Positions 1,886 to 62,857 of a stretch of 64,000 nucleotides of DNA are shown in pieces (positions within the stretch are counted from its first letter, which is position 1; every line of letters starts with the position of its first letter). The notes under the pieces are model-generated. The model saw nothing but the letters and a program-made list of their open reading frames with translations. It had not been told where the DNA came from and did not search any database. The stretch is from Eledone cirrhosa (lineage: Eukaryota), in assembly GCA_964016885.1 (NCBI GenBank), contig OZ024740.1, forward strand, positions 21,142,001 through 21,206,000. Direction: 5' to 3'. A program made the translations under genes and the position numbers.

Positions 1886-1972
1886 TGCGTAATGTAGTCC
1901 AAGATATACTGTCTGATAATATCACATTGAAAGAAGGAATGGTACATTGTCTAATGTAGTCCAAGATATACT
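1886..1972 (-). repeat. 87-bp inverted satellite segment, TGCGT allele
   Basis: CAGAC|TGCGTAATGTAGTCC...GAAAGAAGGAATGGTACAT...AGATATACT|ATGTACC is the reverse complement of 1.4 monomers. Confidence 0.97.
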
Positions 1973-3932
1973 ATGTACCATTCCTTCTTTCAATGTCATA
2001 TTATCAGACAGTATATCTTCGACTACAATAGACAATGTACCATTCCTACTTTCAATGTGATATTAACAGACAGTATATCTTGGACTACATTAGACAATGT
2101 ACCATTCCTTCTTTCAATGTGATATTATCAGACAGTATATCATGGACTACATTATACAATGTACCATTCCTTCTTTCAATGTTATATTATCAGACTGTAT
2201 ATCTTGGACTACATTAGACAATATACCATTCCTTCTTTCAATGTGATATTATCAGACAGTATATCTTGGACTACATTAGACAATGTATCGTTCCTTCTTT
2301 CAATGTGATATTATCAGACAGTATACCTTGGACAACATTAGACAATATACCATTCCTTCTTTCAATGTGATATTATCAGACAGTATATATTGGACTACAT
2401 TAGACAATGTACCATTCCTTCTTTCAAGGTGATATTATCAGACAGTATATCTTGGACTACATTAGACAATGTAGCATTCCTTCTTTCAATGTGATATTAT
2501 CAGACAGTATATCTTGGACTACATTATACAATGTACCATTCCTTCTTTCAATGTTATATTATCAGACTGTATATCTTGGACTACATTAGACAATATACCA
2601 TTCCTTCTTTCAATGTGATATTACCAGACAGTATATCTTGGACTACATTAGACAATGTATCGTTCCTTCTTTCAATGTGATATTATCAGACAGTATACCT
2701 TGGACAACATTAGACAATATACCATTCCTTCTTTCAATGTGATATTATCAGACAGTATATATTGGACTACATTAGACAATGTATCATTCCTTCTTTCAAG
2801 GTGATATTATCAGACAGTATATCTTGGACTACATTAGACAATGTACCATTCCTTCTATCAAAGTTATATTATCAGACAGTATATCTTGGACTACATTAGA
2901 CAATGTACCATTCCTTCTTTCAAGGTGATATTATCAGACAGTATATCTTGGACTACATTAGACAATGTACCATTCCTTCTTTCAATGTTATATTATCAGA
3001 CAGTATATCTTCGACTACATTAGACAATATACCATTCCTTCTTTCAATGTGATATTATCAGACAGTATATCTTGGACAACATTCGACAATGTACCATTCT
3101 TTCTTTCAAGGTGATATTATCAGACAGTATATCTTGGACTACATTAGACAATGTACCATTCCTTCTATCAAAGTGATATTATCAGACAGTATATCTTGTG
3201 ACTACATTAGACAATGTACCATTCCTTCTTTCAATGTTATATTATCAGACAGTATATCTTCGACTACATTAGACAATATACCATTCCTTCTTTCAATGTG
3301 ATATTATCAGACAGTATATCTTGGACAACATTCGACAATGTACCATTCTTTCTTTCAAGGTGATATTATCAGACAGTATATCTTGGACTACAATAGACAA
3401 TGTACCATTCCTACTTTCAATGTGATATTAACAGACAGTATATCTTGGACTACATTAGACAATGTACCATTCCTTCTTTCAATGTGATATTATCAGACAG
3501 TATATCTTGGACTACATTAGACAATGTACCATTCCTTCTTTCAATGTGATATTATCAGACAGTATATCATGGACTACATTATACAATGTACCATTCCTTC
3601 TTTCAATGTTATATTATCAGACTGTATATCTTGGACTACATTAGACAATATACCATTCCTTCTTTCAATGTGATATTATCAGACAGTATATCTTGGACTA
3701 CATTAGACAATGTACCATTCCTTCTTTCAATGTGATATTATCAGACAGTATATCTTGGACTACATTAGACAATGTACCATTCCTTCTTTCAATGGGATAT
3801 TATCAGACAGTATATCCTGGACTACATTAGACAATGTACCATTTCTTCTTTCAAGTTGATATTATCAGACAGTATATCTTGGACTACATTAGACAATGTA
3901 CCATTCCTTCTTTCAATGTGATATTATCAGAC

Positions 3933-4019
3933 TGCGTAATGTAGTCCAAGATATACTGTCTGATAATATCACATTGAAAGAAGGAATGGTACATTGTCTA
4001 ATGTAGTCCAAGATATACT
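3933..4019 (-). repeat. 87-bp inverted satellite segment, TGCGT allele
   Basis: Same reverse-complement block and breakpoints. Confidence 0.97.
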
Positions 4020-5172
4020 ATGTACCATTCCTTCTTTCAATGTCATATTATCAGACAGTATATCTTCGACTACAATAGACAATGTACCATTCCTACTTTC
4101 AATGTGATATTAACAGACAGTATATCTTGGACTACATTAGACAATGTACCATTCCTTCTTTCAATGTGATATTATCAGACAGTATATCATGGACTACATT
4201 ATACAATGTACCATTCCTTCTTTCAATGTTATATTATCAGACTGTATATCTTGGACTACATTAGACAATATACCATTCCTTCTTTCAATGTGATATTATC
4301 AGACAGTATATCTTGGACTACATTAGACAATGTACCATTCCTTCTTTCAATGTGATATTATCAGACAGTATACCTTGGACTGCATTAGACAATGTACCAT
4401 TCCTTCGTTCAAGGTGATATTATCAGACAGTATATCTTGGACTACACTAGACAATGTACCATTCCTTCTTTCAAGGTGATATTATCAGACAGTATATCTT
4501 GGACTAAATTAGACAATGTACCAGTCCTTCTTTCAATGTCATATTATCAGACAGTATATCTTGGACTTCATTAGACAATATACCATTCCTTCTTTCAATG
4601 TGATATTATCAGACAGTATATCTTGGACTACATTAGACAATGTACCATTCCTTCTTTCAAGGTGATATTATCAGACAGTATATCTTGGACTACATTAGAC
4701 AATGTACCATTCCTTCTTTCAATGTTATATTATCAGACAGTATATCTTGGACTACAATAGACAATGTACCATTCCTACTTTCAATGTGATATTATCAGAC
4801 AGTATATCTTTGACTACATTAGACAATGTACCATTCCTTCTTTCAATGTGATATTATCAGACAGTATATCATGGACTACATTATACAATGTACCATTCCT
4901 TCTTTCAATGTTATATTATCAGACTGTATATCTTGGACTACATTAGACGATATACCATTCCTTCTTTCAATGTGATATTATCAGACAGTATATCTTGGAC
5001 TACATTAGACAATGTACCATTCCTTCTTTCAAGGTGATATTATCAGACAGTATATCTTGGACTACATTAGACAATGTACCATTTCTTCTTTCAAGTTGAT
5101 ATTATCAGACAGTATATCTTGGACTACATTAGACAATGTACCATTCCTTCTTTCAATGTGATATTATCAGAC

Positions 5173-5259
5173 TGCGTAATGTAGTCCAAGATATACTGTC
5201 TGATAATATCACATTGAAAGAAGGAATGGTACATTGTCTAATGTAGTCCAAGATATACT
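5173..5259 (-). repeat. 87-bp inverted satellite segment, TGCGT allele
   Basis: Same block and breakpoints. Confidence 0.97.
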
Positions 5260-8200
5260 ATGTACCATTCCTTCTTTCAATGTCATATTATCAGACAGTA
5301 TATCTTCGACTACAATAGACAATGTACCATTCCTACTTTCAATGTGATATTAACAGACAGTATATCTTGGACTACATTAGACAATGTACCATTCCTTCTT
5401 TCAATGTGATATTATCAGACAGTATATCATGGACTACATTATACAATGTACCATTCCTTCTTTCAATGTTATATTATCAGACTGTATATCTTGGACTACA
5501 TTAGACAATATACCATTCCTTCTTTCAATGTGATATTATCAGACAGTATATCTTGGACTACATTAGACAATGTACCATTCCTTCTTTCAATGTGATATTA
5601 TCAGACAGTATACCTTGGACTGCATTAGACAATGTACCATTCCTTCGTTCAAGGTGATATTATCAGACAGTATATCTTGGACTACACTAGACAATCTACC
5701 ATTCCTTCTTTCAAGGTGATATTATCAGACAGTATATCTTGGACTAAATTAGACAATGTACCAGTCCTTCTTTCAATGTCATATTATCAGACAGTATATC
5801 TTGGACTTCATTAGACAATATACCATTCCTTCTTTCAATGTGATATTATCAGACAGTATATCTTGGACTACATTAGACAATGTACCATTCCTTCTCTCAA
5901 GGTGATATTATCAGACAGTATAACTTGGACTACATTAGACAATGTACCATTCCTTCTTTCAATGTTATATTATCAGACAGAATATCTTGGACTACAATAG
6001 ACAATGTACCATTCCTACTTTCAATGTGATATTATCAGACAGTATATCTTTGACTACATTAGACAATGTACCATTCCTTCTTTCAATGTGATATTATCAG
6101 ACAGTATATCATGGACTACATTATACAATGTACCATTCCTTCTTTCAATGTTATATTATCAGACTGTATATCTTGGACTACATTAGACAATATACCATTC
6201 CTTCTTTCAATGTGATATTATCAGACAGTATATCTTGGACTACATTAGACAATGTACCATTCCTTCTTTCAAGGTGATATTATCAGACAGTATATCTTGG
6301 ACTACATTAGACAATGTACCATTCCTTCTTTCAAGGTGATATTATCAGACAGTATATCTTGGACTACATTAGACAATGTACTATTCCTTCTTTCAAGGTG
6401 ATATTATCAGACAGTATATCTTGGACTACATTAGACAATGTACCATTCCTTCTTTCAATGTTATATTATCAGACAGTATATCTTCGACTACATTAGACAA
6501 TATACCATTCCTTCTTTCAATGTGATATTATCAGACAGTATATCTTGGATAACATTCGACAATGTACCATTCTTTCTTTCAAGGTGATATTATCAGACAG
6601 TATATCTTGGACTACAATAGACAATGTACCATTCCTACTTTCAATGTGATATTAACAGACAGTATATCTTGGACAACATTAGACAATGTACCATTCCTTC
6701 TTTCAATGTGATATTATCAGACAGTATATCATGGACTACATTATACAATGTACCATTCCTTCTTTCAATGTTATATTATCAGACTGTATATCTTGGACTA
6801 CATTAGACAATATACCATTCCTTCTTTCAATGTGATATTATCAGACAGTATATCTTGGACAACATTAGACAATGTACCATTCTTTCTTTCAAGGTGATAT
6901 TATCAGACAGTATATCTTGGACTACAATAGACAATGTACCATTCCTACTTTCAATGTGATATTATCAGACAGTATATCTTTGACTACATTAGACAATGTA
7001 CCATCACTTCTTTCAATGTGATATTATCAGACAGTATATCATGGACTACATTATACAATGTACCATTCCTTCTTTCTATGTTATATTATCAGACTGTATA
7101 TCTTGGACTACATTAGACAATATACCATTCCTTCTTTCAATGTGATATTATCAGACAGTATATCTTGGACTACATTAGACAATGTAGCATTCCTTCTTTC
7201 AATGTGATATTATCAGACAGTATATCTTGGACTACATTATACAATGTACCATTCCTTCTTTCAATGTTATATTATCAGACTGTATATCTTGGACTACATT
7301 AGACAATATACCATTCCTTCTTTCAATGTGATATTATCAGACAGTATATCTTGGACTACATTAGACAATGTATCGTTCCTTCTTTCAATGTGATATTATC
7401 AGACAGTATACCTTGGACAACATTAGACAATATACCATTCCTTCTTTCAATGTGATATTATCAGACAGTATATATTGGACTACATTAGACAATGTACCAT
7501 TCCTTCTTTCAAGGTGATATTATCAGACAGTATATCTTGGACTACATTAGACAATGTACCATTCCTTCTATCAAAGTGATATTATCAGACAGTATATCTT
7601 GGACTACATTAGACAATGTACCATTCCTTCTTTCAAGGTGATATTATCAGACAGTATATCTTGGACTACATTAGACAATGTACCATTCCTTCTTTCAATG
7701 TTATATTATCAGACAGTATATCTTCGACTACATTAGACAATATACCATTCCTTCTTTCAATGTGATATTATCAGACAGTATATCTTGGACAACATTCGAC
7801 AATGTACCATTCTTTCTTTCAAGGTGATATTATCAGACAGTATATCTTGGACTACAATAGACAATGTACCATTCCTACTTTCAATGTGATATTAACAGAC
7901 AGTATATCTTGGACTACATTAGACAATGTACCATTGCTTCTTTCAATGTGATATTATCAGACAGTATATCTTGGACTACATTAGACAATGTACCATTCCT
8001 TCTTTCAATGTGATATTATCAGACAGTATATCATGGACTACATTATACAATGTACCATTCCTTCTTTCAATGTTATATTATCAGACTGTATATCTTGGAC
8101 TACATTAGACAATATACCATTCCTTCTTTCAATGTGATATTATCAGACAGTATATCTTGGACTACATTAGACAATGTACCATTCCTTCTTTCAATGTGAT

Positions 8201-8396
8201 ATTATCAGACAGTATATCTTGGACTACATTAGACAATGTACCATTCCTTCTTTCAATGGGATATTATCAGACAGTATATCTTGGACTACATTAGACAATG
8301 TACCATTTCTTCTTTCAAGTTGATATTATCAGACAGTATATCTTGGACTACATTAGACAATGTACCATTCCTTCTTTCAATGTGATATTATCAGAC

Positions 8397-8483
8397 TGCG
8401 TAATGTAGTCCAAGATATACTGTCTGATAATATCACATTGAAAGAAGGAATGGTACATTGTCTAATGTAGTCCAAGATATACT
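8397..8483 (-). repeat. 87-bp inverted satellite segment, TGCGT allele
   Basis: Same block and breakpoints. Confidence 0.97.
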
Positions 8484-10194
8484 ATGTACCATTCCTTCTT
8501 TCAATGTCATATTATCAGACAGTATATCTTCGACTACAATAGACAATGTACCATTCCTACTTTCAATGTGATATTAACAGACAGTATATCTTGGACTACA
8601 TTAGACAATGTACCATTCCTTCTTTCAATGTGATATTATCAGACAGTATATCATGGACTACATTATACAATGTACCATTCCTTCTTTCAATGTTATATTA
8701 TCAGACTGTATATCTTGGACTACATTAGACAATATACCATTCCTTCTTTCAATGTGATATTATCAGACAGTATATCTTGGACTACATTAGACAATGTATC
8801 GTTCCTTCTTTCAATGTGATATTATCAGACAGTATACCTTGGACAACCTTAGACAATATACCATTCCTTCTTTCAATGTGATATTATCAGACAGTATATA
8901 TTGGACTACATTAGACAATGTACCATTCCTTCTTTCAAGGTGATATTATCAGACAGTATATCTTGGACTACATTAGACAATGTAGCATTCCTTCTTTCAA
9001 TGTGATATTATCAGACAGTATATCTTGGACTACATTATACAATGTACCATTCCTTCTTTCAATGTTATATTATCAGACTGTATATCTTGGACTACATTAG
9101 ACAATATACCATTCCTTCTTTCAATGTGATATTACCAGACAGTATATCTTGGACTACATTAGACAATGTATCGTTCCTTCTTTCAATGTGATATTATCAG
9201 ACAGTATACCTTGGACAACATTAGACAATATACCATTCCTTCTTTCAATGTGATATTATCAGACAGTATATATTGGACTACATTAGACAATGTATCATTC
9301 CTTCTTTCAAGGTGATATTATCAGACAGTATATCTTGGACTACATTAGACAATGTACCATTCCTTCTATCAAAGTTATATTATCAGACAGTATATCTTGG
9401 ACTACATTAGACAATGTACCATTCCTTCTTTCAAGGTGATATTATCAGACAGTATATCTTGGACTACATTAGACAATGTACCATTCCTTCTTTCAAGGTT
9501 ATATTATCAGACAGTATATCTTCGACTACATTAGACAATATACCATTCCTTCTTTCAATGTGATATTATCAGACAGTATATCTTGGACAACATTCGACAA
9601 TGTACCATTCTTTCTTTCAAGGTGATATTATCAGACAGTATATCTTGGACTACAATAGACAATGTACCATTCCTACTTTCAATGTGATATTAACAGACAG
9701 TATATCTTGGACTACATTAGACAATGTACCATTCCTTCTTTCAATGTGATATTATCAGACAGTATATCTTGGACTACATTAGACAATGTACCATTCCTTC
9801 TTTCAATGTGATATTATCAGACAGTATATCATGGACTACATTATACAATGTACCATTCCTTCTTTCAATGTTATATTATCAGACTGTATATCTTGGACTA
9901 CATTAGACAATATACCATTCCTTCTTTCAATGTGATATTATCAGACAGTATATCTTGGACTACATTAGACAATGTACCATTCCTTCTTTCAATGTGATAT
10001 TATCAGACAGTATATCTTGGACTACATTAGACAATGTTCCATTCCTTCTTTCAATGGGATATTATCAGACAGTATATCTTGGACTACATTAGACAATGTA
10101 CCATTTCTTCTTTCAAGTTGATATTATCAGACAGTATATCTTGGACTACATTAGACAATGTACCATTCCTTCTTTCAATGTGATATTATCAGAC

Positions 10195-10281
10195 TGCGTA
10201 ATGTAGTCCAAGATATACTGTCTGATAATATCACATTGAAAGAAGGAATGGTACATTGTCTAATGTAGTCCAAGATATACT
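10195..10281 (-). repeat. 87-bp inverted satellite segment, TGCGT allele
   Basis: Same block and breakpoints. Confidence 0.97.
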
Positions 10282-10876
10282 ATGTACCATTCCTTCTTTC
10301 AATGTCATATTATCAGACAGTATATCTTCGACTACAATAGACAATGTACCATTCCTACTTTCAATGTGATATTAACAGACAGTATATCTTGGACTACATT
10401 AGACAATGTACCATTCCTTCCTTCAATGTGATATTATCAGACAGTATATCATGGACTACATTATACAATGTACCATTCCTTCTTTCAATGTTATATTATC
10501 AGACTGTATATCTTGGACTACATTAGACAATATACCATTCCTTCTTTCAATGTGATATTATCAGACAGTATATCTTGGACTACATTAGACAATGTACCAT
10601 TCCTTCTTTCAATGTGATATTATCAGACGGTATATCTTGGACTGCATTAGACAATGTACCATTCCTTCGTTCAAGGTGATATTATCAGACAGTATATCTT
10701 GGACTACACTAGACAATGTACCATTCCTTCTTTCAAGGTGATATTATCAGACAGTATATCTTGGACTACATTAGACAATGTACCATTCCTTATTTCAATG
10801 TGATATTATCAGACAGTGTATCTTGCACTACATTAGACAATGTACCATTCCTTCTGTCAATGTGATATTATCAGAC

Positions 10877-10963
10877 TGCCTAATGTAGTCCAAGATATAC
10901 TGTCTGATAATATCACATTGAAAGAAGGAATGGTACATTGTCTAATGTAGTCCAAGATATACT
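10877..10963 (-). repeat. 87-bp inverted satellite segment, TGCCT allele
   Basis: Same block, preceded by the TTCTGTCAAT monomer variant. Confidence 0.97.
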
Positions 10964-13900
10964 ATGTACCATTCCTTCTTTCAATGTCATATTATCAGAC
11001 AGTATATCTTCGACTACAATAGACAATGTACCATTCCTACTTTCAATGTGATATTAACAGACATTATATCTTGGACTACATTAGACAATGTACCATTCCT
11101 TCTTTCAATGTGATATTATCAGACAGTATATCATGGACTACATTATACAATGTACCATTCCTTCTTTCAATGTTATATTATCAGACTGTATATCTTGGAC
11201 TACATTTGACAATATACCATTCCTTCTTTCAATGTGATATTATCAGACAGTATATATTGGACTACATTAGACAATGTACCATTCCTTCTTTCAATGTGAT
11301 ATTATCAGACAGTATATCTTGGACTGCATTAGACAATGTACCATTCCTTCGTTCAAGGTGAAATTATCAGACAGTATATCTTGGACTACACTAGACAATG
11401 TACCATTCCTTCTTTCAAGGTGATATTATCAGACAGTATATCTTGGACTAAATTAGACAATGTACCATTCCTTCTTTCAATGTCATATTATCAGACAGTA
11501 TATCTTGGACTACATTAGACAATGTACCATTCCTTCTTTCAAGGTGATATTATCAGACAGTATATCTTGGACTACATTAGACAATGTACCATTCCTTCTT
11601 TCAAGGTGATATTATCAGACAGTATATCTTGGACTACATTAGACAATGTACCATTCCTTCTTTCAAGGTGATATTATCAGACAGTATATCTTGGACTACA
11701 TTAGACAATGTACCATTCCTTCTTTCAATGTTATATTATCAGACAGTATATCTTCGACTACATTAGACAATATACCATTCCTTCTTTCAATGTGATATTA
11801 TCAGACAGTATATCTTGGATAACATTAGACAATGTACCATTCTTTCTTTCAAGGTGATATTATCAGACAGTATATCTTGGACTACAATAGACAATGTACC
11901 ATTCCTACTTTCAATGTGATATTATCAGACAGTATATCTTTGACTACATTAGACAATGTACCATCACTTCTTTCAATGTGATATTATCAGACAGTATATC
12001 ATGGACTACATTATACAATGTACCATTCCTTCTTTCTATGTTATATTATCAGACTGTATATCTTGGACTACATTAGACAATATACCATTCCTTCTTTCAA
12101 GGTGATATTATCAGACAGTATATCTTGGACTTCATTAGACAATATACCATTCCTTCTTTCAATGTGATATTATCAGACATTATATCTTGGACTACATTAG
12201 ACAATGTACCATTCCTTCTTTCAAGGTGATATTATCAGACAGTATATCTTGGACTACATTAGACAATGTACCATTCCTTCTTTCAAGGTGATATTATCAG
12301 ACAGTATATCTTGGACTACATTAGACAATGTACCATTCCTTCTTTCAAGGTGATATTATCAGACAGTATATCTTGGACTACATTAGACAATGTACCATTC
12401 CTTCTTTCAATGTTATATTATCAGACAGTATATCTTCGACTACATTAGACAATATACCATTCCTTCTTTCAATGTGATATTATCAGACAGTATATCTTGG
12501 ACAACATTAGACAATGTACCATTCTTTCTTTCAAGGTGATATTATCAGACAGTATATCTTGGACTACAATAGACAATGTACCATTCCTACTTTCAATGTG
12601 ATATTATCAGACAGTATATCTTTGACTACATTAGACAATGTACCATCACTTCTTTCAATGTGATATTATCAGACAGTATATCATGGACTACATTATACAA
12701 TGTACCATTCCTTCTTTCTATGTTATATTATCAGACTGTATATCTTGGACTACATTAGACAATATACCATTCCTTCTTTCAATGTGATATTATCAGACAG
12801 TATATCTTGGACTACATTAGACAATGTAGCATTCCTTCTTTCAATGTGATATTATCAGACAGTATATCTTGGACTACATTATACAATGTACCATTCCTTC
12901 TTTCAATGTTATATTATCAGACTGTATATCTTGGACTACATTAGACAATATACCATTCCTTCTTTCAATGTGATATTATCAGACAGTATATCTTGGACAA
13001 CATTAGACAATGTACCATTCTTTCTTTCAAGGTGATATTATCAGACAGTATATCTTGGACTACAATAGACAATGTACCATTCCTACTTTCAATGTGATAT
13101 TATCAGACAGTATATCTTTGACTACATTAGACAATGTACCATCACTTCTTTCAATGTGATATTATCAGACAGTATATCATGGACTACATTATACAATGTA
13201 CCATTCCTTCTTTCTATGTTATATTATCAGACTGTATATCTTGGACTACATTAGACAATATACCATTCCTTCTTTCAAGGTGATATTATCAGACAGTATA
13301 TCTTGGACTTCATTAGACAATATACCATTCCTTCTTTCAATGTGATATTATCAGACAGTATATCTTGGACTACATTAGACAATGTACCATTCCTTCTTTC
13401 AAGGTGATATTATCAGACAGTATATCTTGGACTACATTAGACAATGTACCATTCCTTCTTTCAAGGTGATATTATCAGACAGTATATCTTGGACTACATT
13501 AGACAATGTACCATTCCTTCTTTCAAGGTGATATTATCAGACAGTATATCTTGGACTACATTAGACAATGTACCATTCCTTCTTTCAATGTTATATTATC
13601 AGACAGTATATCTTCGACTACATTAGACAATATACCATTCCTTCTTTCAATGTGATATTATCAGACAGTATATCTTGGACAACATTAGACAATGTACCAT
13701 TCTTTCTTTCAAGGTGATATTATCAGACAGTATATCTTGGACTACAATAGACAATGTACCATTCCTACTTTCAATGTGATATTATCAGACAGTATATCTT
13801 TGACTACATTAGACAATGTACCATCACTTCTTTCAATGTGATATTATCAGACAGTATATCATGGACTACATTATACAATGTACCATTCCTTCTTTCTATG

Positions 13901-14286
13901 TTATATTATCAGACTGTATATCTTGGACTACATTAGACAATATACCATTCCTTCTTTCAATGTGATATTATCAGACAGTATATCTTGGACTACATTAGAC
14001 AATGTAGCATTCCTTCTTTCAATGTGATATTATCAGACAGTATATCTTGGACTACATTATACAATGTACCATTCCTTCTTTCAATGTTATATTATCAGAC
14101 TGTATATCTTGGACTACATTAGACAATATACCATTCCTTCTTTCAATGTGATATTATCAGACAGTATATCTTGGACTACATTAGACAATGTATCGTTCCT
14201 TCTTTCAATGTGATATTATCAGACAGTATACCTTGGACGACATTAGACAATGTACCATTCCTACTTTCAATGTGATATTATCAGAC

Positions 14287-14373
14287 TGCGTAATGTAGTC
14301 CAAGATATACTGTCTGATAATATCACATTGAAAGAAGGAATGGTACATTGTCTAATGTAGTCCAAGATATACT
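14287..14373 (-). repeat. 87-bp inverted satellite segment, TGCGT allele
   Basis: Same block and breakpoints. Confidence 0.97.
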
Positions 14374-14906
14374 ATGTACCATTCCTTCTTTCAATGTCAT
14401 ATTATCAGACAGTATATCTTCGACTACAATAGACAATGTACCATTCCTACTTTCAATGTGATATTAACAGACAGTATATCTTGGACTACATTAGACAATG
14501 TACCATTCCTTCTTTCAATGTGATATTATCAGACAGTATATCATGGACTACATTATACAATGTACCATTCCTTCTTTCAATGTTATATTATCAGACTGTA
14601 TATCTTGGACTACATTAGACAATATACCATTCCTTCTTTCAATGTGATATTATCAGACGGTATATCTTGGACTGCATTAGACAATGTACCATTCCTTCGT
14701 TCAAGGTGATATTATCAGACAGTATATCTTGGACTACACTAGACAATGTACCATTCCTTCTTTCAAGGTGATATTATCAGACAGTATATCTTGGACTACA
14801 TTAGACAATGTACCATTCCTTATTTCAATGTGATATTATCAGACAGTGTATCTTGCACTACATTAGACAATGTACCATTCCTTCTGTCAATGTGATATTA
14901 TCAGAC

Positions 14907-51300: not shown

Positions 51301-51387
51301 TGTCTAATGTAGTCCAAGATATACTGTCTGATAATATCACATTGAAAGAAGGAATGGTACATTGTCTAATGTAGTCCAAGATATACT
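51301..51387 (-). repeat. 87-bp inverted satellite segment, TGTCT allele (exact reverse complement of consensus)
   Basis: Same block and breakpoints. Confidence 0.97.
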
Positions 51388-52726
51388 ATGTACCATTCCT
51401 TCTTTCAATGTCATATTATCAGACAGTATATCTTCGACTACATTAGACAATGTACCATTCCTTCTTTCAATGTGATATTATCAAACAGTATATCTTGGAC
51501 TACATTAGACAATGTATCGTTCCTTCTTTCAATGTGATATTATCAGACAGTATATGTTGGACTCCATTAGACAATGTACCATTTCTTCTTTCAATGTGAT
51601 ATTATCAGACAGTATATCTTGGACTGCATTAGACAATGTACCATTCCTTCTTTCAAGGTGATATTATCAGACAGTATATCTTGGACTACACTAGACAATG
51701 AACCATTCCTTCTTTCAAGGTGATATTATCAGACAGTATATCTTGAACTAAATTAGACAATGTACCATTCCTTCTTTCAATGTCATATTATCAGACAGTA
51801 TATCTTGGACTTCATTAGACAATATACCATTCCTTCTTTCAATGTGATATTATCAGACAGTATATCTTGGACTACATTAGACAATGTACCATTCCTTCTT
51901 TCAAGGTGATATTATCAGACAGTATATCTTGGACTACATTAGACCATGTACCATTCCTTCTTTCAAGGTGATATTATCAGACAGTATATCTTGGACTACA
52001 TTAGACAATGTACCATTCCTTCCTTCAAGGTGATATTATCAGACAGTATATCTTGGACTACATTAGACAATGTACCATTCCTTCTTTCAATGTTATATTA
52101 TCAGACAGTATATCTTCGACTACATTAGACAATATACCATTCCTTCTTTCAATGTGATATTATCAGACAGTATATCTTGGACAACATTAGACAATGTACC
52201 ATTCTTTCTTTCAAGGTGATATTATCAGACAGTATATCTTGGACTACAATAGACAATGTACCATTCCTACTTTCAATGTGATATTAACAAACAGTATATC
52301 TTGGACTACATTATACAATGTACCATTCCTTCTTTCAATGTTATATTATCAGACTGTATATCTTGGACTACATTAGACAATATACCATTCCTTCTTTCAA
52401 TGTGATATTATCAGACAGTATATCTTGGACTACATTAGACAATGTACCATTCCTTCTTTCAATGTGATATTATCAGACAGTATATTTTGGACTACATTAG
52501 ACAATGTACCATTCCTTCTTTCAATGGGATATTATCAGACAGTATATCTTGGACTACATTAGACAATGTACCATTCCTTCTTTCAAGGTGATATTATCAG
52601 ACAGTATATCTTGGACTACATTAGACAATGTACCATTCCTTCTTTCAATGTGATATTATCAGACAGTGTATCTTGGACTACATTAGACAATGTACCATTC
52701 CTTCTGTCAATGTGATATTATCAGAC

Positions 52727-52813
52727 TGTCTAATGTAGTCCAAGATATACTGTCTGATAATATCACATTGAAAGAAGGAATGGTACATTGTCTAATGTAG
52801 TCCAAGATATACT
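52727..52813 (-). repeat. 87-bp inverted satellite segment, TGTCT allele
   Basis: Same block and breakpoints. Confidence 0.97.
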
Positions 52814-54400
52814 ATGTACCATTCCTTCTTTCAATGTCATATTATCAGACAGTATATCTTCGACTACATTAGACAATGTACCATTCCTTCTTTCAATGTG
52901 ATATTATCAAACAGTATATCTTGGACTACATTAGACAATGTATCCTTCCTTCTTTCAATGTGATATTATCAGACAGTATACCTTGGACTACATTAGACAA
53001 TGTACCATTCCTTCTTTCAATGTGATATTATCAGACAGTATATCTTGGACTGCATTAGACAATGTACCTTTCCTTCGTTCAAGGTGATATTATCAGACAG
53101 TATATCTTGGACTACACTAGACAATGTACCATTCCTTCTTTCAAGGTGATATTATCAGACAGTATATCTTGGACTAAATTAGACAATGTACCATTCCTTC
53201 TTTCAATGTCATATTATCAGACAGTATATCTTGGACTTCATTAGACAATATACCATTCCTTCTTTCAATGTGATATTATCAGACAGTATATCTTGGACTA
53301 CCTTAGACAATGTACCATTCCTTCTTTCATGGTGATATTATCAGACAGTATATCTTGGACTACATTAGACAATGTACCATTCCTTCTTTCAAGGTGATAT
53401 TATCAGACAGTATATCTTGGACTACATTAGACAATGTATCGTTCCTTCTTTCAATGTGATATTATCAGACAGTATATCTTGGACTACATTAGACAATGTA
53501 CCATTCCTTCTTTCAATGTGATATTATCAGACAGTATATCTTGGACTACATTAGACAATGTACCATTCCTTCTTTCAATGGGATATTAGCAGACAGTATA
53601 TCTTGGACTACATTAGACAATATACCATTCCTTCTTTCAATATGATATTATCAGACAGTATATCTTGGACTACATTAGACAATGTACCATTCCTTCTTTC
53701 AATCGGATATTATCAGACAGTATATCTTGGACTACATTAGACAATATACCATTCCTTCTTTCAATGTGATATTATCAGACAGTATATCTTGGACTACATT
53801 AGACAATGTACCATTCCTTCTTTAAATGTGGTATTATCAGACAGTATATTTTGGACTACATTAGACAATGTACCATTCCTTCTTTCAATGGGATATTATC
53901 AGACAGTATATCTTGGACTACATTAGACAATGTACCATTCCTTCTTTCAAGGTGATATTATCAGACAGTATATCTTGGACTACATTAGACAATGTACCAT
54001 TCCTTCTTTCAATGTGATATTATCAGACAGTGTATCTTGGACTACATTAGACAATATACCATTCCTTCTTTCAATGTGATATTATCAGACAGTATATCTT
54101 GGACTACATTAGACAATGTACCATTCCTTCTTTCAATGTGATATTATCAGACAGTATATTTTGGACTACATTAGACAATGTACCATTCCTTCTTTCAATG
54201 GGATATTATCAGACAGTATATCTTGGACTACATTAGACAATGTACCATTCCTTCTTTCAAGGTGATATTATCAGACAGTATATCTTGGACTACATTAGAC
54301 AATGTACCATTCCTTCTTTCAATGTGATATTATCAGACAGTGTATCTTGGACTACATTAGACAATGTACCATTCCTTCTGTCAATGTGATATTATCAGAC

Positions 54401-54487
54401 TGTCTAATGTAGTCCAAGATATACTGTCTGATAATATCACATTGAAAGAAGGAATGGTACATTGTCTAATGTAGTCCAAGATATACT
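54401..54487 (-). repeat. 87-bp inverted satellite segment, TGTCT allele
   Basis: Same block and breakpoints. Confidence 0.97.
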
Positions 54488-56756
54488 ATGTACCATTCCT
54501 TCTTTCAATGTCATATTATCAGACAGTATATCTTCGACTACATTAGACAATGTACCATTCCTTCTTTCAATCTGATATTATCAAACAGTATATCTTGGAC
54601 TACATTAGACAATGTATCCTTCCTTCTTTCAATGTGATATTATCAGACAGTATACCTTGGACTACATTAGACAATGTACCATTCCTTCTTTCAATGTGAT
54701 ATTATCAGACAGTATATCTTGGACTGCATTAGACAATGTACCTTTCCTTCGTTCAAGGTGATATTATCAGACAGTATATCTTGGACTACACTAGACAATG
54801 TACCATTCCTTCTTTCAAGGTGATATTATCAGACAGTATATCTTGGACTAAATTAGACAATGTACCATTCCTTCTTTCAATGTCATATTATCAGACAGTA
54901 TATCTTGGACTTCATTAGACAATATACCATTCCTTCTTTCAATGTGATATTATCAGACAGTATATCTTGGACTACCTTAGACAATGTACCATTCCTTCTT
55001 TCATGGTGATATTATCAGACAGTATATCTTGGACTACATTAGACAATGTACCATTCCTTCTTTCAAGGTGATATTATCAGACAGTATATCTTGGACTACA
55101 TTAGACAATGTATCGTTCCTTCTTTCAATGTGATATTATCAGACAGTATATCTTGGACTACATTAGACAATGTACCATTCCTTCTTTCAATGTGATATTA
55201 TCAGACAGTATATCTTGGACTACATTAGACAATGTACCATTCCTTCTTTCAATGGGATATTAGCAGACAGTATATCTTGGACTACATTAGACAATATACC
55301 ATTCCTTCTTTCAATATGATATTATCAGACAGTATATCTTGGACTACATTAGACAATGTACCATTCCTTCTTTCAATCGGATATTATCAGACAGTATATC
55401 TTGGACTACATTAGACAATATACCATTCCTTCTTTCAATGTGATATTATCAGACAATATATCTTGGACTACATTAGACAATGTACCATTCCTTCTTTCAA
55501 TGTGATATTATCAAACAGTATATCTTGGACTACATTAGACAATGTATCGTTCCTTCTTTCAATGTGATATTATCAGACAGTATATGTTGGACTACATTAG
55601 ACAATGTACCATTTCTTCTTTCAATGTGATATTATCAGACAGTATATCTTGGACTGCATTAGACAATGTACCATTCCTTCTTTCAAGGTGATATTATCAG
55701 ACAGTATATCTTGGACTACACTAGACAATGAACCATTCCTTCTTTCAAGGTGATATTATCAGACAGTATATCTTGAACTAAATTAGACAATGTACCATTC
55801 CTTCTTTCAATGTCATATTATCAGACAGTATATCTTGGACTTCATTAGACAATATACCATTCCTTCTTTCAATGTGATATTATCAGACAGTATATCTTGG
55901 ACTACATTAGACAATGTACCATTCCTTCTTTCAAGGTGATATTATCAGACAGTATATCTTGGACTACATTAGACCATGTACCATTCCTTCTTTCAAGGTG
56001 ATATTATCAGACAGTATATCTTGGACTACATTAGACAATGTACCATTCCTTCCTTCAAGGTGATATTATCAGACAGTATATCTTGGACTACATTAGACAA
56101 TGTACCATTCCTTCTTTCAATGTTATATTATCAGACAGTATATCTTCGACTACATTAGACAATATACCATTCCTTCTTTCAATGTGATATTATCAGACAG
56201 TATATCTTGGACAACATTAGACAATGTACCATTCTTTCTTTCAAGGTGATATTATCAGACAGTATATCTTGGACTACAATAGACAATGTACCATTCCTAC
56301 TTTCAATGTGATATTAACAAACAGTATATCTTGGACTACATTATACAATGTACCATTCCTTCTTTCAATGTTATATTATCAGACTGTATATCTTGGACTA
56401 CATTAGACAATATACCATTCCTTCTTTCAATGTGATATTATCAGACAGTATATCTTGGACTACATTAGACAATGTACCATTCCTTCTTTCAATGTGATAT
56501 TATCAGACAGTATATTTTGGACTACATTAGACAATGTACCATTCCTTCTTTCAATGGGATATTATCAGACAGTATATCTTGGACTACATTAGACAATGTA
56601 CCATTCCTTCTTTCAAGGTGATATTATCAGACAGTATATCTTGGACTACATTAGACAATGTACCATTCCTTCTTTCAATGTGATATTATCAGACAGTGTA
56701 TCTTGGACTACATTAGACAATGTACCATTCCTTCTGTCAATGTGATATTATCAGAC

Positions 56757-56843
56757 TGTCTAATGTAGTCCAAGATATACTGTCTGATAATATCACATTG
56801 AAAGAAGGAATGGTACATTGTCTAATGTAGTCCAAGATATACT
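56757..56843 (-). repeat. 87-bp inverted satellite segment, TGTCT allele
   Basis: Same block and breakpoints. Confidence 0.97.
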
Positions 56844-58430
56844 ATGTACCATTCCTTCTTTCAATGTCATATTATCAGACAGTATATCTTCGACTACATT
56901 AGACAATGTACCATTCCTTCTTTCAATGTGATATTATCAAACAGTATATCTTGGACTACATTAGACAATGTATCCTTCCTTCTTTCAATGTGATATTATC
57001 AGACAGTATACCTTGGACTACATTAGACAATGTACCATTCCTTCTTTCAATGTGATATTATCAGACAGTATATCTTGGACTGCATTAGACAATGTACCTT
57101 TCCTTCGTTCAAGGTGATATTATCAGACAGTATATCTTGGACTACACTAGACAATGTACCATTCCTTCTTTCAAGGTGATATTATCAGACAGTATATCTT
57201 GGACTAAATTAGACAATGTACCATTCCTTCTTTCAATGTCATATTATCAGACAGTATATCTTGGACTTCATTAGACAATATACCATTCCTTCTTTCAATG
57301 TGATATTATCAGACAGTATATCTTGGACTACCTTAGACAATGTACCATTCCTTCTTTCATGGTGATATTATCAGACAGTATATCTTGGACTACATTAGAC
57401 AATGTACCATTCCTTCTTTCAAGGTGATATTATCAGACAGTATATCTTGGACTACATTAGACAATGTATCGTTCCTTCTTTCAATGTGATATTATCAGAC
57501 AGTATATCTTGGACTACATTAGACAATGTACCATTCCTTCTTTCAATGTGATATTATCAGACAGTATATCTTGGACTACATTAGACAATGTACCATTCCT
57601 TCTTTCAATGGGATATTAGCAGACAGTATATCTTGGACTACATTAGACAATATACCATTCCTTCTTTCAATATGATATTATCAGACAGTATATCTTGGAC
57701 TACATTAGACAATGTACCATTCCTTCTTTCAATCGGATATTATCAGACAGTATATCTTGGACTACATTAGACAATATACCATTCCTTCTTTCAATGTGAT
57801 ATTATCAGACAGTATATCTTGGACTACATTAGACAATGTACCATTCCTTCTTTAAATGTGGTATTATCAGACAGTATATTTTGGACTACATTAGACAATG
57901 TACCATTCCTTCTTTCAATGGGATATTATCAGACAGTATATCTTGGACTACATTAGACAATGTACCATTCCTTCTTTCAAGGTGATATTATCAGACAGTA
58001 TATCTTGGACTACATTAGACAATGTACCATTCCTTCTTTCAATGTGATATTATCAGACAGTGTATCTTGGACTACATTAGACAATATACCATTCCTTCTT
58101 TCAATGTGATATTATCAGACAGTATATCTTGGACTACATTAGACAATGTACCATTCCTTCTTTCAATGTGATATTATCAGACAGTATATTTTGGACTACA
58201 TTAGACAATGTACCATTCCTTCTTTCAATGGGATATTATCAGACAGTATATCTTGGACTACATTAGACAATGTACCATTCCTTCTTTCAAGGTGATATTA
58301 TCAGACAGTATATCTTGGACTACATTAGACAATGTACCATTCCTTCTTTCAATGTGATATTATCAGACAGTGTATCTTGGACTACATTAGACAATGTACC
58401 ATTCCTTCTGTCAATGTGATATTATCAGAC

Positions 58431-58517
58431 TGTCTAATGTAGTCCAAGATATACTGTCTGATAATATCACATTGAAAGAAGGAATGGTACATTGTCTAAT
58501 GTAGTCCAAGATATACT
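58431..58517 (-). repeat. 87-bp inverted satellite segment, TGTCT allele
   Basis: Same block and breakpoints. Confidence 0.97.
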
Positions 58518-59856
58518 ATGTACCATTCCTTCTTTCAATGTCATATTATCAGACAGTATATCTTCGACTACATTAGACAATGTACCATTCCTTCTTTCAA
58601 TCTGATATTATCAAACAGTATATCTTGGACTACATTAGACAATGTATCCTTCCTTCTTTCAATGTGATATTATCAGACAGTATACCTTGGACTACATTAG
58701 ACAATGTACCATTCCTTCTTTCAATGTGATATTATCAGACAGTATATCTTGGACTGCATTAGACAATGTACATTTCCTTCGTTCAAGGTGATATTATCAG
58801 ACAGTATATCTTGGACTACACTAGACAATGTACCATTCCTTCTTTCAAGGTGATATTATCAGACAGTATATCTTGGACTAAATTAGACAATGTACCATTC
58901 CTTCTTTCAATGTCATATTATCAGACAGTATATCTTGGACTTCATTAGACAATATACCATTCCTTCTTTCAATGTGATATTATCAGACAGTATATCTTGG
59001 ACTACCTTAGACAATGTACCATTCCTTCTTTCATGGTGATATTATCAGACAGTATATCTTGGACTACATTAGACAATGTACCATTCCTTCTTTCAAGGTG
59101 ATATTATCAGACAGTATATCTTGGACTACATTAGACAATGTATCGTTCCTTCTTTCAATGTGATATTATCAGACAGTATATCTTGGACTACATTAGACAA
59201 TGTACCATTCCTTCTTTCAATGTGATATTATCAGACAGTATATCTTGGACTACATTAGACAATGTACCATTCCTTCTTTCAATGGGATATTAGCTGACAG
59301 TATATCTTGGACTACATTAGACAATATACCATTCCTTCTTTCAATATGATATTATCCGACAGTATATCTTGGACTACATTAGACAATGTACCATTCCTTC
59401 TTTCAATCGGATATTATCAGACAGTATATCTTGGACTACATTAGAGAATATACCATTCCTTCTTTCAATGTGATATTATCAGACAATATATCTTGGACTA
59501 CATTAGACAATGTACCATTTCTTCTTTCAATGTTATATTATCAGACAGTATATCTTGGACTACATTAGACAATGTTCCATTCCTTCTTTCAATGTGATAT
59601 TATCAGACAGTATATCTTGGACTACATTAGACAATGTACCATTCCTTCTTTCAATGGGATATTATCAGACAGTATATCTTGGACTACATTAGACAATGTA
59701 CCATTCCTTCTTTCAAGGTGATATTATCAGACAGTATATCTTGGACTACATTAGACAATGTACTATTCCTTCTTTCAATGTGATATTATCAGACAGTGTA
59801 TCTTGGACTACATTATACAATGTACCATTCCTTCTGTCAATGTGATATTATCAGAC

Positions 59857-59943
59857 TGTCTAATGTAGTCCAAGATATACTGTCTGATAATATCACATTG
59901 AAAGAAGGAATGGTACATTGTCTAATGTAGTCCAAGTTATACT
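59857..59943 (-). repeat. 87-bp inverted satellite segment, TGTCT allele
   Basis: Same block, with A>T at 59937 shared with the next copy. Confidence 0.97.
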
Positions 59944-60662
59944 ATGTACCATTCCTTCTTTCAATGTCATATTATCAGACAGTATATCTTTGACTACATT
60001 AGACAATGTACCATTCCTTCTTTCAATGTGATATTATCAAACAGTATATCTTGGACTACACTAGACAATGAACCATTCCTTCTTTCAAGGTGATATTATC
60101 AGACAGTATATCTTGGACTAAATTAGACAATGTACCATTCCTTCTTTCAATGTCATATTATCAGACAGTATATCTTGGACTTCATTAGACAATATACCAT
60201 TCCTTCTTTCAATGTGATATTATCAGACAGTATATCTTGGACTACATTAGACAATGTACCATTCCTTCTTTCAAGGTGATATTATCAGACAGTATATCTT
60301 GGACTACATTAGACAATGTACCATTCCTTCTTTCAAGGTGATATTATCAGACAGTATATCTTGGACTACATTAGACAATGTACCATTCCTTCTTTCAATG
60401 TTATATTATCAGACAGTATATCTTCGACTACATTAGACAATATACCATTCCTTCTTTCAATGTGATATTATCAGACAGTATATCTTGGACAACATTCGAC
60501 AATGTACCATTCTTTCTTTCAAGGTGATATTATCAGACAGTATATCTTGGACTACAATAGACAATGTACCATTCCTTCTTTCAATGTGATATTATCAGAC
60601 AGTGTATCTTGGACTACATTAGACAATGTACCATTCCTTCTGTCAATGTGATATTATCAGAC

Positions 60663-60749
60663 TGTCTAATGTAGTCCAAGATATACTGTCTGATAATATC
60701 ACATTGAAAGAAGGAATGGTACATTGTCTAATGTAGTCCAAGTTATACT
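60663..60749 (-). repeat. 87-bp inverted satellite segment, TGTCT allele
   Basis: Same block, with A>T at 60743. Confidence 0.97.
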
Positions 60750-61964
60750 ATGTACCATTCCTTCTTTCAATGTCATATTATCAGACAGTATATCTTCGAC
60801 TACATTAGACAATGTACCATTCCTTCTTTCAATGTGATATTATCAAACAGTATATCTTGGACTACATTAGACAATGTATCGTTCCTTCTTTCAATGTGAT
60901 ATTATCAGACAGTATATCTTGGACTACATTAGACAATGTACCATTTCTTCTTTCAATGTGATATTATCAGACAGTATATCTTGGACTGCATTAGACAATG
61001 TACCATTCCTTCTTTCAAGGTGATATTATCAGACAGTATATCTTGGACTACACTAGACAATGAACCATTCCTTCTTTCAAGGTGATATTATCAGACAGTA
61101 TATCTTGGACTAAATTAGACAATGTACCATTCCTTCTTTCAATGTCATATTATCAGACAGTATATCTTGGACTTCATTAGACAATATACCATTCCTTCTT
61201 TCAATGTGATATTATCAGACAGTATATCTTGGACTACATTAGACAATGTACCATTCCTTCTTTCAAGGTGATATTATCAGACAGTATATCTTGGACTACA
61301 TTAGACAATGTACCATTCCTTCTTTCAAGGTGATATTATCAGACAGTATATCTTGGACTACATTAGACAATGTACCATTCCTTCTTTCAATGTTATATTA
61401 TCAGACAGTATATCTTCGACTACATTAGACAATATACCATTCCTTCTTTCAATGTGATATTATCAGACAGTATATCTTGGACAACATTCGACAATGTACC
61501 ATTCTTTCTTTCAAGGTGATATTATCAGACAGTATATCTTGGACTACAATAGACAATGTACCATTCCTACTTTCAATGTGATATTAACAGACAGTATATC
61601 TTGGACTACATTAGACAATGTACCATTCCTTCTTTCAATGTGATATTATCAGACAGTATATCATGGACTACATTATACAATGTACCATTCCTTCTTTCAA
61701 TGTTATATTATCAGACTGTATATCTTGGACTACATTAGACAATATACCATTCCTTCTTTCAATGTGATATTATCAGACAGTATATCTTGGACTACATTAG
61801 ACAATGTACCATTCCTTCTTTCAATGTGATATTATCAGACAGTATATCTTGGACTACATTAGACAATGTACCATTCCTTCTTTCAATGTGATATTATCAG
61901 ACAGTATATCTTGGACTACATTAGACAATGTACCATTCCTTCTGTCAATGTGATATTATCAGAC

Positions 61965-62051
61965 TGCCTAATGTAGTCCAAGATATACTGTCTGATAATA
62001 TCACATTGAAAGAAGGAATGGTACATTGTCTAATGTAGTCCAAGATATACT
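61965..62051 (-). repeat. 87-bp inverted satellite segment, TGCCT allele (outlier in the TGTCT domain)
   Basis: AGAC|TGCCTAATGTAG at 61961-61976. Confidence 0.97.
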
Positions 62052-62770
62052 ATGTACCATTCCTTCTTTCAATGTCATATTATCAGACAGTATATCTTCG
62101 ACTACATTAGACAATATACCATTCCTTCTTTCAATGTGATATTATCAGACAGTATATCTTCGACTACATTAGACAATATACCATTCCTTCTTTCAATGTG
62201 ATATTATCAGACAGTATATCTTGGACAACATTAGACAATGTACCATTCTTTCTTTCAAGGTGATATTATCAGACAGTATATCTTGGACTACAATAGACAA
62301 TGTACTATTCCTACTTTCAATGTGATATTAACAAACAGTATATCTTGGACTACATTATACAATGTACCATTCCTTCTTTCAATGTTATATTATCAGACTG
62401 TATATCTTGGACTACATTAGACAATATACCATTCCTTCTTTCAATGTGATATTATCAGACAGTATATCTTGGACTACATTAGACAATGTACCATTCCTTC
62501 TTTCAATGTGATATTATCAGACAGTATATTTTGGACTACATTAGACAATGTACCATTCCTTCTTTCAATGGGATATTATCAGACAGTATATCTTGGACTA
62601 CATTAGACAATGTACCATTCCTTCTTTCAAGGTGATATTATCAGACAGTATATCTTGGACTACATTAGACAATGTACCATTCCTTCTTTCAATGTGATAT
62701 TATCAGACAGTGTATCTTGGACTACATTAGACAATGTACCATTCCTTCTGTCAATGTGATATTATCAGAC

Positions 62771-62857
62771 TGTCTAATGTAGTCCAAGATATACTGTCTG
62801 ATAATATCACATTGAAAGAAGGAATGGTACATTGTCTAATGTAGTCCAAGATATACT
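62771..62857 (-). repeat. 87-bp inverted satellite segment, TGTCT allele
   Basis: Same block and breakpoints. Confidence 0.97.

What the first reader, a model, noticed from the sequence alone, without database searches (positions are those of the whole stretch)
1886..62857. One 87-bp phase-preserving micro-inversion amplified to 30 copies inside the satellite
Seen: if the monomer is written as A (37 bp, ATGTACC...CAGAC) plus B (25 bp, AGTATATC...TTAGACA), every inverted patch is revcomp(B-A-B) sitting exactly where B-A-B should be, with no base gained or lost. All 29 starts after the 3199 insertion are 27 mod 62. Both breakpoints are the same in all copies. Spacing is irregular (10-83 monomers, mean about 2.1 kb). 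Every copy I checked is followed by the same ATGTCATATT variant monomer, mostly with TCTTCGAC, and most TGCCT and TGTCT copies are preceded by TTCTGTCAAT. Inference: the inversion arose once and spread by unequal crossover or block duplication, rather than by repeated site-specific inversion. A short, repeatedly interspersed antisense patch is an unusual satellite architecture compared with large strand switches.
Basis: partly seen in the sequence, partly recalled or inferred. Interest (0 to 1): 0.75.

Follow-up and report, generated by a model that had tools for sequence, protein, structure and literature searches.

The report
One flipped patch, copied 120 times
An 87-base back-to-front patch occurs 120 times, with the same two end points, in a single 353-kb array of a 62-base repeat; its copies share rare flanking mutations, so it likely flipped once and likely rode along as a passenger when blocks of the array were duplicated, which makes it a record of repeat turnover rather than a shown functional element.

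Summary
Observation confirmed: 30 of 30 patches are 87-bp reverse complements of B-A-B with identical breakpoints. The window lies in one 353-kb, 5,692-monomer array on G000:C1 that holds 120 patches of this lineage over 270 kb, and none in the first 83 kb. Single origin is well supported: variant 25C follows 115 of 115 copies with an intact right end (282 of 5,455 elsewhere); 17G precedes 90 of 120 (10 of 5,450 elsewhere); no patch carries the array's three commonest variants. Ordinary two-SNV monomer haplotypes have the same range and similar copy numbers, and inferred duplication breakpoints show no net excess at patches, so the patch behaves as a passenger. 'Phase preservation' is automatic for a balanced inversion. 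By-product: patches change about 0.6 times as fast as their flanks (p 0.015-0.035), as expected if shielded from gene conversion. Closest known: amplified, conserved inversion sites in Tribolium satellites. The scan noted similar amplified inversions in other satellites of this genome before; two loci checked here agree. Expression and function untested.

The parts
1..64000 (+). 62-bp satellite array, part of a 353-kb single-locus array (G000:C1:20,932,170-21,285,008; window coordinates about -209,830 to 143,008)
3198..3199 (+). 1-bp insertion in one monomer that shifts the register by one
1886..1972 (-). 87-bp inverted patch, TGCGT lineage
3933..4019 (-). 87-bp inverted patch, TGCGT
5173..5259 (-). 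87-bp inverted patch, TGCGT
8397..8483 (-). 87-bp inverted patch, TGCGT
10195..10281 (-). 87-bp inverted patch, TGCGT
10877..10963 (-). 87-bp inverted patch, TGCCT lineage
14287..14373 (-). 87-bp inverted patch, TGCGT
14907..14993 (-). 87-bp inverted patch, TGCCT
17077..17163 (-). 87-bp inverted patch, TGCGT
17697..17783 (-). 87-bp inverted patch, TGCCT
21107..21193 (-). 87-bp inverted patch, TGCGT
22967..23053 (-). 87-bp inverted patch, TGCCT
24393..24479 (-). 87-bp inverted patch, TGCCT
25447..25533 (-). 87-bp inverted patch, TGCCT
29415..29501 (-). 87-bp inverted patch, TGCCT
31523..31609 (-). 87-bp inverted patch, TGCCT
32949..33035 (-). 87-bp inverted patch, TGCCT
35057..35143 (-). 87-bp inverted patch, TGCCT
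39211..39297 (-). 87-bp inverted patch, TGCCT
43365..43451 (-). 87-bp inverted patch, TGCCT
46155..46241 (-). 87-bp inverted patch, TGCCT with one private substitution near the right end
51301..51387 (-). 87-bp inverted patch, TGTCT (identical to the reverse complement of the consensus)
52727..52813 (-). 87-bp inverted patch, TGTCT; left junction seen in sequencing-run contigs
54401..54487 (-). 87-bp inverted patch, TGTCT
56757..56843 (-). 87-bp inverted patch, TGTCT
58431..58517 (-). 87-bp inverted patch, TGTCT
59857..59943 (-). 87-bp inverted patch, TGTCT with 44A
60663..60749 (-). 87-bp inverted patch, TGTCT with 44A
61965..62051 (-). 87-bp inverted patch, TGCCT
62771..62857 (-). 87-bp inverted patch, TGTCT

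Best explanation
The patch is a balanced 87-bp inversion present in 120 copies with shared breakpoints and linked flanking variants, which likely arose once in one monomer pair of a single-locus 62-bp satellite and was likely multiplied as a neutral passenger by in-register block duplications and deletions. Shown: identical breakpoints, linkage to 17G and 25C, nested sub-lineages with ancestral-looking copies at both edges and the most derived in the centre, comparable copy numbers of ordinary monomer haplotypes. Inferred: the duplication mechanism (unequal exchange or homology-directed repair), the order of the sub-lineages, and that the patch, having no same-strand partner except other patches, is largely cut off from exchange with ordinary monomers. 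The origin of the first flip (template switch or double cut and rejoin) cannot be decided; there is no exact microhomology at either junction.
For: 25C follows 115 of 115 copies with an intact right end versus 282 of 5,455 other monomers; 17G precedes 90 of 120 versus 10 of 5,450. None of the patches carries 22G, 3A or 25T, which sit in 23.6%, 16.9% and 12.7% of ordinary monomers of the same zone; chance of 0 of 118 is 1.6e-14, 3.5e-10 and 1.1e-7 if copies were independent flips. Two-SNV haplotypes share the range and size: 25T+48C 126, 12T+56A 131, 3A+52A 106, 14A+32A 117 copies versus 120 patches (16 haplotypes examined, 34-271 copies). Sub-lineages are nested: TGTCT/25C-only (13 copies) at 21,015-21,051 and 21,250-21,285 kb, TGCGT (19) only at 21,108-21,163 kb. 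Inferred breakpoints within patch plus 124 bp: 52.5 and 58.5 versus shifted nulls of 53.2 and 53.5 (p 0.56, 0.22; 354 and 359 jumps). In-register events also trim the patch: one 25-bp copy (one 62-bp period lost), four 84-bp copies with a replaced right flank, one with its last 14 bases replaced. Whole-unit kilobase duplications and deletions are measured in Arabidopsis CEN178 (10.1101/2025.06.02.657473; abstract and passages).
Against: Patch spacing is the most even of all markers compared (CV 0.68; 28 single variants 0.69-2.98, the lowest being the linked 25C; 16 haplotypes 0.79-2.46) and no gap is under 9 monomers (0 of 119; about 18% expected at random), though four haplotype markers also have minima of 9-16. 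Breakpoints are slightly enriched in the 124 bp beside patches (p 0.077 and 0.023) while depleted inside. Patches carry fewer changes than their flanks, which constraint would also give. The ancestral patch equals the consensus, true of only 2.4% of 4,011 ordinary B-A-B stretches. Right junction not shown in reads; no independent individual; no RNA data.
Confidence: 0.82

Rival explanations
1. Functional hairpin lattice: each patch pairs with neighbouring monomers into an 87-bp stem in single-stranded DNA or in a transcript, and selection keeps the patches intact and evenly spaced (chromatin landmark or hairpin-RNA/siRNA source).
For: A 461-nt stretch with a patch folds to -115.4 kcal/mol as DNA (z -17.9) and -189.5 as RNA (z -16.5), a patch-free stretch to -32 (z 0.2). 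Lowest spacing CV of the markers compared. Fewer changes inside the patch. Function is proposed, not shown, for Tribolium inversion sites.
Against: The folding follows by construction from any inversion in a tandem array. The first 83 kb of the array has no patch. Ordinary haplotypes match its range, number and minimum spacing. Damaged copies (25, 73, 84 bp) persist and the 84-bp form was itself copied four times. Isolation from conversion explains the lower change rate without selection.
Confidence: 0.08
2. Self-promoting patch: hairpins cause breaks whose repair duplicates the patch-bearing blocks, so the patch drove the expansion of the 270-kb layer.
For: The patch range coincides with the younger monomer layer (38T, 46A, 59T, 56A appear where patches do). 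Slight excess of inferred breakpoints in the flanking 124 bp.
Against: No net excess within 124 or 310 bp including the patch (p 0.22-0.56); the patch-free left zone was also amplified to about 1,330 monomers with its own repeated indel markers; no inverted block longer than one patch exists in the array.
Confidence: 0.05
3. Recurrent site-specific inversion at the two AGACA motifs of the monomer.
For: Both breakpoints lie at the monomer's internal direct repeat AGACA (positions 34-38, 58-62; sequence). A separate 27-bp inverted segment at C1:21,275,586 has other breakpoints, three of its four switch points near the same motifs.
Against: Flanking linkage and the absence of common array variants in the patches; direct repeats do not yield inversions by simple recombination (established knowledge); the second event is a singleton with different ends and an 18-bp net loss.
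Confidence: 0.02
4. Assembly or sequencing artefact, or inflated copy number.
For: Right junction not displayed in any listed contig; runs X4-X6 may be the assembled sample; raw RAD-seq runs gave only 9, 6 and 5 reads, none informative.
Against: Left junction in run contigs at depth 365 and 493 with no differences; the array's right boundary sequence appears as a loose end in X4-X6; copies carry heritable nested variants that an error process would not make.
Confidence: 0.03

Closest known systems
Conserved, amplified inversion sites of Tribolium madens TmSat1/TmSat2 (INV_1a, INV_1b, INV_2; PMC13081366, abstract and passages)
   Same: Thousands of near-identical orientation-switch junctions inside satellite arrays, no foreign sequence, predicted long hairpins.
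   Different: There the inverted subarrays are kilobases to tens of kilobases, on all chromosomes, read as possibly functional. Here both junctions are 87 bp apart, travel together, sit in one 353-kb locus, and behave like neutral markers.
Six inversion-segment types of Tribolium freemani TfSat01 (10.1101/2024.12.02.626372, passages)
   Same: Stereotyped junctions of truncated monomers, 95-99.9% alike, spread by amplification.
   Different: Single strand switches between long subarrays, shared between chromosomes; not an out-and-back patch shorter than two monomers.
Hieracium alpinum HintCl-18 block-type arrays (PMC11566620, passages)
   Same: Repeated forward and reverse blocks in a short-monomer satellite, attributed to microinversions.
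   Different: About 650-bp blocks with linkers; read as multiple inversions or aged transposons; single origin not tested in the passages seen.
Microinversions and short-range template switches in ape genomes (PMC8755829, abstract; PMC7954356, passages)
   Same: Precise in-place reverse complement (type 1-3-2-4 in the four-point model).
   Different: [quoted passage not shown]
Period-preserving indels and non-allelic gene conversion in Arabidopsis CEN178 (10.1101/2025.06.02.657473, abstract and passages)
   Same: Whole-unit kilobase duplications and deletions plus short conversions are enough to give this array's pattern.
   Different: The word 'inversion' does not occur in its main text; centromeric role of the present array is unknown.

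Membership tests
Single-origin variant amplified by satellite turnover | Identical breakpoints in all copies | tested here: met
   All 120 lineage copies share the left breakpoint; 115 of 120 keep the right one, 5 have it secondarily replaced.
Single-origin variant amplified by satellite turnover | Shared rare flanking variants | tested here: met
   25C 115 of 115 versus 282 of 5,455; 17G 90 of 120 versus 10 of 5,450.
Single-origin variant amplified by satellite turnover | Range and copy number like neutral co-amplified markers | tested here: met
   16 two-SNV haplotypes, 34-271 copies, four at 106-131, over the same zone.
Single-origin variant amplified by satellite turnover | Selective neutrality | tested here: inconclusive
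   No breakpoint hot spot, but most even spacing and fewer internal changes.
Tribolium-type macro-dyad symmetry | Conserved, amplified inversion junctions without foreign DNA | tested here: met
Tribolium-type macro-dyad symmetry | Kilobase-scale inverted subarrays of roughly balanced length | tested here: not met
   All 121 minus-strand segments are 25-89 bp.
Tribolium-type macro-dyad symmetry | Present on many chromosomes, (peri)centromeric | tested here: not met
   Genome-wide exact counts (3,037 forward, 116 reverse, 90 junctions) equal those in this one array; centromeric status not testable.
Inverted-repeat-flanked microinversion (Potapova et al.) | Perfect or nearly perfect flanking inverted repeat | tested here: not met
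   0 bp exact; 4 of 6 inside, 2 of 6 outside; 11.5% of all 3,844 breakpoint pairs score as high.
Regular higher-order repeat containing an inverted subunit | Fixed period between patches | tested here: not met
   Gaps 9-142 monomers, median 30, CV 0.68.
Hairpin-RNA (endo-siRNA) locus | Long fold-back stem | tested here: met
   Predicted only; follows by construction.
Hairpin-RNA (endo-siRNA) locus | Transcription and phased small RNAs | not tested

The most novel reading that the evidence does not exclude
The 120 patches form a selected, evenly spaced lattice of 87-bp fold-back stems that turns an otherwise unstructured satellite into a hairpin-RNA or cruciform source, and amplified micro-inversions are a general design of this genome's satellites. 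A milder novel reading, which I put near 0.5, is that the patch is a conversion-shielded internal clock that lets de novo mutation and non-allelic gene conversion be separated inside one array.
Probability: 0.08. Interest if true: 0.7.

Novelty: new variant of a known kind. Interest (0 to 1): 0.3.

Why it matters
As a passenger it is a clean lineage tracer for satellite turnover: one unambiguous event with 120 descendants, nested sub-lineages and a mapped range in a fully assembled single-locus array. It is also a caution: conserved, amplified inversion junctions are read in print as hints of function, yet here they are matched by ordinary SNV haplotypes. Because the patch has few same-strand partners, comparing it with its flanks offers a way to split mutation from conversion (about 2.0-2.3 versus 3.5-3.6 events per kb). 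If the lattice reading were true it would give a testable role to satellite dyad symmetry.

Tried and rejected
Coding role: stop-to-stop frames are 61 aa by the 186-bp period, longest 112 aa, 283 listed. Known RNA family: no Rfam hit in 51000-56000, 5 kb of the 64 kb. Flanking inverted repeat as cause: not above background. Hairpin-templated correction or conversion from ordinary monomers into the patch: rejected, the 15 patch variants are far rarer in the array than frequency-weighted sampling predicts (0 of 20,000 draws as low), only marginally commoner than uniform (p 0.050). The 25-bp copy as ancestor: rejected, it carries a derived haplotype shared with neighbouring 87-bp copies. Patches seeding larger inversions, as earlier scan notes propose for other arrays: none in this array. 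Raw RAD-seq runs X7-X9: 9, 6 and 5 reads, uninformative. Runs X1 and X2 (other organism labels, small share): a 92-bp contig of the plain consensus cycle at depth 12 and 24, no junction contig, too shallow to mean absence. In one search the in-patch mutation bin was inflated by first occurrences and by mixed-strand comparisons; I dropped those 66-67 positions. Literature: 10 searches; five returned nothing and none showed this satellite or an amplified sub-two-monomer inversion, but the library lacks most subscription journals and matches words only. Supplements were not read; those of the two bioRxiv preprints are closed and could hold similar short inverted segments.
Full report
Observation. 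The window is one 62-bp tandem array of 1,032 copies. Scanning with revcomp(B-A-B) gives exactly 30 hits of 87 bp with 0-2 mismatches, from 1886 to 62857; 29 start at 27 mod 62 and the first at 26, on the other side of a 1-bp insertion near 3199. Spacing, mean 2,099 bp, and the flanking variants are as described: 25C after 30 of 30, TCTTCGAC after 24 of 30, 17G before 21 of 22 TGCCT or TGTCT copies. Phase preservation is automatic for an inversion without gain or loss.

Setting. The window is G000:C1:21,142,001-21,206,000 in a 3.0-Gb assembly. I fetched 270 kb to the left and 200 kb to the right. The array runs from 20,932,170 to 21,285,008, about 353 kb and 5,692 monomer slots. Exact counts of a 24-base monomer word (3,037 forward, 116 reverse) and of the 22-base right junction (90) in this stretch equal the genome-wide totals, so in this assembly these words occur only here. 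A strand and phase parse finds 121 minus-strand segments: 113 of 87 bp, one parsed as 89 (an 87 with a flanking substitution), four of 84, one of 73, one of 25, and one of 27 with other breakpoints. The first 83 kb has none. No inverted block exceeds one patch. The flanks look to me like octopus SINE-rich DNA; that is recalled and untested, and one earlier scan note also says 'likely octopus'.

Is it real? An 80-bp contig identical to window 52677-52756 crosses the left junction in run X4 (depth 365) and X5 (depth 492.6), with 30 letters on the patch side, one short of the tool's bridging rule. The array's right boundary appears as a loose end in X4-X6. These runs are one sample, possibly the assembled one. 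No listed piece bridges the right junction, with 247 pieces not shown. RAD-seq reads were too few. The nested heritable variants below argue against an error process.

Single origin. 25C follows 115 of 115 copies whose right end is intact, against 282 of 5,455 other monomers; 17G precedes 90 of 120, against 10 of 5,450. Independent flips would sample the array's variation, yet no patch has 22G, 3A or 25T (23.6%, 16.9%, 12.7% of ordinary monomers; chance of 0 of 118 between 1e-14 and 1e-7). Patches differ from the reversed consensus by 0.99 bases on average, pairwise diversity 1.5%, against 3.6% from consensus for ordinary monomers. Sub-lineages are nested: TGTCT with 25C alone (13 copies) at both edges, TGTCT with 48C (37), TGCCT with 48C and 56A (43), and TGCGT (19) confined to 21,108-21,163 kb. 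I read this as expansion from within that pushes older forms outward; the order is inferred by parsimony, no tree was built. Later in-register events trimmed some copies: the 25-bp copy lost one 62-bp period and shares its haplotype with neighbouring full copies; the four 84-bp copies joined an ordinary monomer end, likely at a shared TATAC, and lost the 25C monomer.

Passenger or driver. Sixteen two-SNV monomer haplotypes have 34-271 copies; four have 106-131 and span about the same zone as the 120 patches. Short gaps are missing for the patch (0 of 119 under 9 monomers, about 18% expected at random), but also for 22G+54A, 25C+53T, 11T+23T and 41G+49C, so this reflects the size of duplicated blocks. 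Against neutrality, the patch has the lowest spacing CV of all 44 markers compared (0.68; next 0.69 for the linked 25C, 0.72 for 12T). A copying model run in both directions gave 354 and 359 jumps in the patch zone. Against 300 shifted placements, jumps are depleted inside patches (5.3 and 7.0 versus 13.4 and 13.6), slightly raised in the 124 bp beside them (p 0.077, 0.023), and unremarkable when summed (p 0.56, 0.22). So exchanges are displaced from the patch, not multiplied by it. The model's jump cost was set by hand and not varied.

Isolation from conversion. Substitution-like events run at 2.05 and 2.34 per kb in patches (21 and 24 in 10,265 bp) against 3.47 and 3.58 in their immediate flanks, which share the genealogy (92 and 95 in 26,537 bp; binomial p 0.015, 0.035), and 4.1-4.4 in the whole zone. 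The 15 patch variants are much rarer in the array than conversion from ordinary monomers would give. In the flanks 58% of events involve alleles at 1% or more, against 23% if uniform, but this share is partly circular because flank alleles were amplified with the patch. In Arabidopsis CEN178, conversion between nearby units supplies most point changes and large indels add or remove whole units (10.1101/2025.06.02.657473; abstract and passages). The simplest reading is that the patch sees mostly de novo mutation; constraint is not excluded.

Origin of the flip. There is no exact microhomology at either junction, and the imperfect inverted match (4 of 6 inside) is reached by 11.5% of all breakpoint pairs when inside and outside are summed. 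This fails the defining feature of the ape microinversions (PMC8755829, abstract). It fits an in-place 1-3-2-4 template switch (PMC7954356, passages) or a double cut and rejoin; an inverted copy of neighbouring monomers cannot be told apart. Both breakpoints lie at the monomer's AGACA direct repeat, a post hoc remark. A singleton at C1:21,275,586 replaces about 42 bases by a 24-29-base inverted piece with 3- and 2-base microhomology; it is likely a second, independent event.

Structure. A patch folds back on adjacent monomers into an 87-bp stem (DNA -115.4, RNA -189.5 kcal/mol; patch-free control -32). This follows by construction and shows no function. No Rfam family in 5 kb tested, no coding frame beyond the periodic 61-112 aa, no RNA data.

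Comparison. Amplified, near-identical inversion sites are described in Tribolium madens (PMC13081366, abstract and passages) and T. freemani (10.1101/2024.12.02.626372, passages), with kilobase inverted subarrays on many chromosomes; forward and reverse blocks occur in Hieracium (PMC11566620, passages). The present case works like those junctions in being amplified but is not a macro-dyad symmetry. Ten searches found no paper on this satellite or on an amplified out-and-back patch shorter than two monomers; coverage is limited. The scan has noted the same kind of thing in 16-, 20- and 39-bp satellites of this genome (unchecked AI notes). I fetched 20 kb at two of those places on C1 and found 20-bp arrays with 46 and 41 alternating segments of recurring lengths, which agrees with the description; their single-origin claims I did not test.

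Verdict. Real, single-origin, most likely a neutral passenger (0.82). New variant of a known kind; interest 0.3, held up by its use as a lineage tracer and as a possible control for conversion rates.

Noticed in passing
L027, G000:C1:21,275,573-21,275,616: Singleton 27-bp inverted segment with different breakpoints, short microhomologies and an 18-bp net loss; likely a second independent template switch, near other complex indels at the array's right end.
   Followed up: partly
L024, G000:C1:21,238,929-21,238,953: 25-bp patch: an 87-bp copy that lost one 62-bp period internally, still in phase.
   Followed up: yes
L019-L020, G000:C1:21,124,108-21,131,817: Four 84-bp copies whose right end joins an ordinary monomer in register; found with both TGCCT (3) and TGCGT (1) heads, implying exchange between patches.
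   Followed up: partly
L028, G000:C1:21,277,771-21,277,857: Copy whose last 14 bases are replaced by a 14-base stretch of unclear origin, length kept.
   Followed up: no
L047 and L001-L007, G000:C1:20,932,170-21,015,000: Patch-free left layer with its own variants (62G, 15G, 44A) and more indels; 62G and 15G reappear near the right edge, suggesting an older layer split by the younger one.
   Followed up: partly
L029-L031, G000:C1:21,290,830-21,313,945: A second, unrelated 32-bp satellite of about 716 copies begins 6 kb right of the array.
   Followed up: no
window 52785-52817 in runs X1, X2, X6: About 33-bp pieces of the monomer embedded in unrelated sequence in several contigs, hinting at dispersed fragments; X1 and X2 also hold a 92-bp contig of the exact consensus cycle at low depth.
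   Followed up: no
monomer positions 52-62 and 1-5: Each monomer junction has a small predicted hairpin with an AGAC loop; the right inversion breakpoint lies one base from that loop.
   Followed up: no
L048-L051, G000:C1:279.62 Mb and 296.17 Mb: Two 20-bp satellites with 46 and 41 alternating-strand segments per 20 kb and recurring segment lengths.
   Followed up: partly
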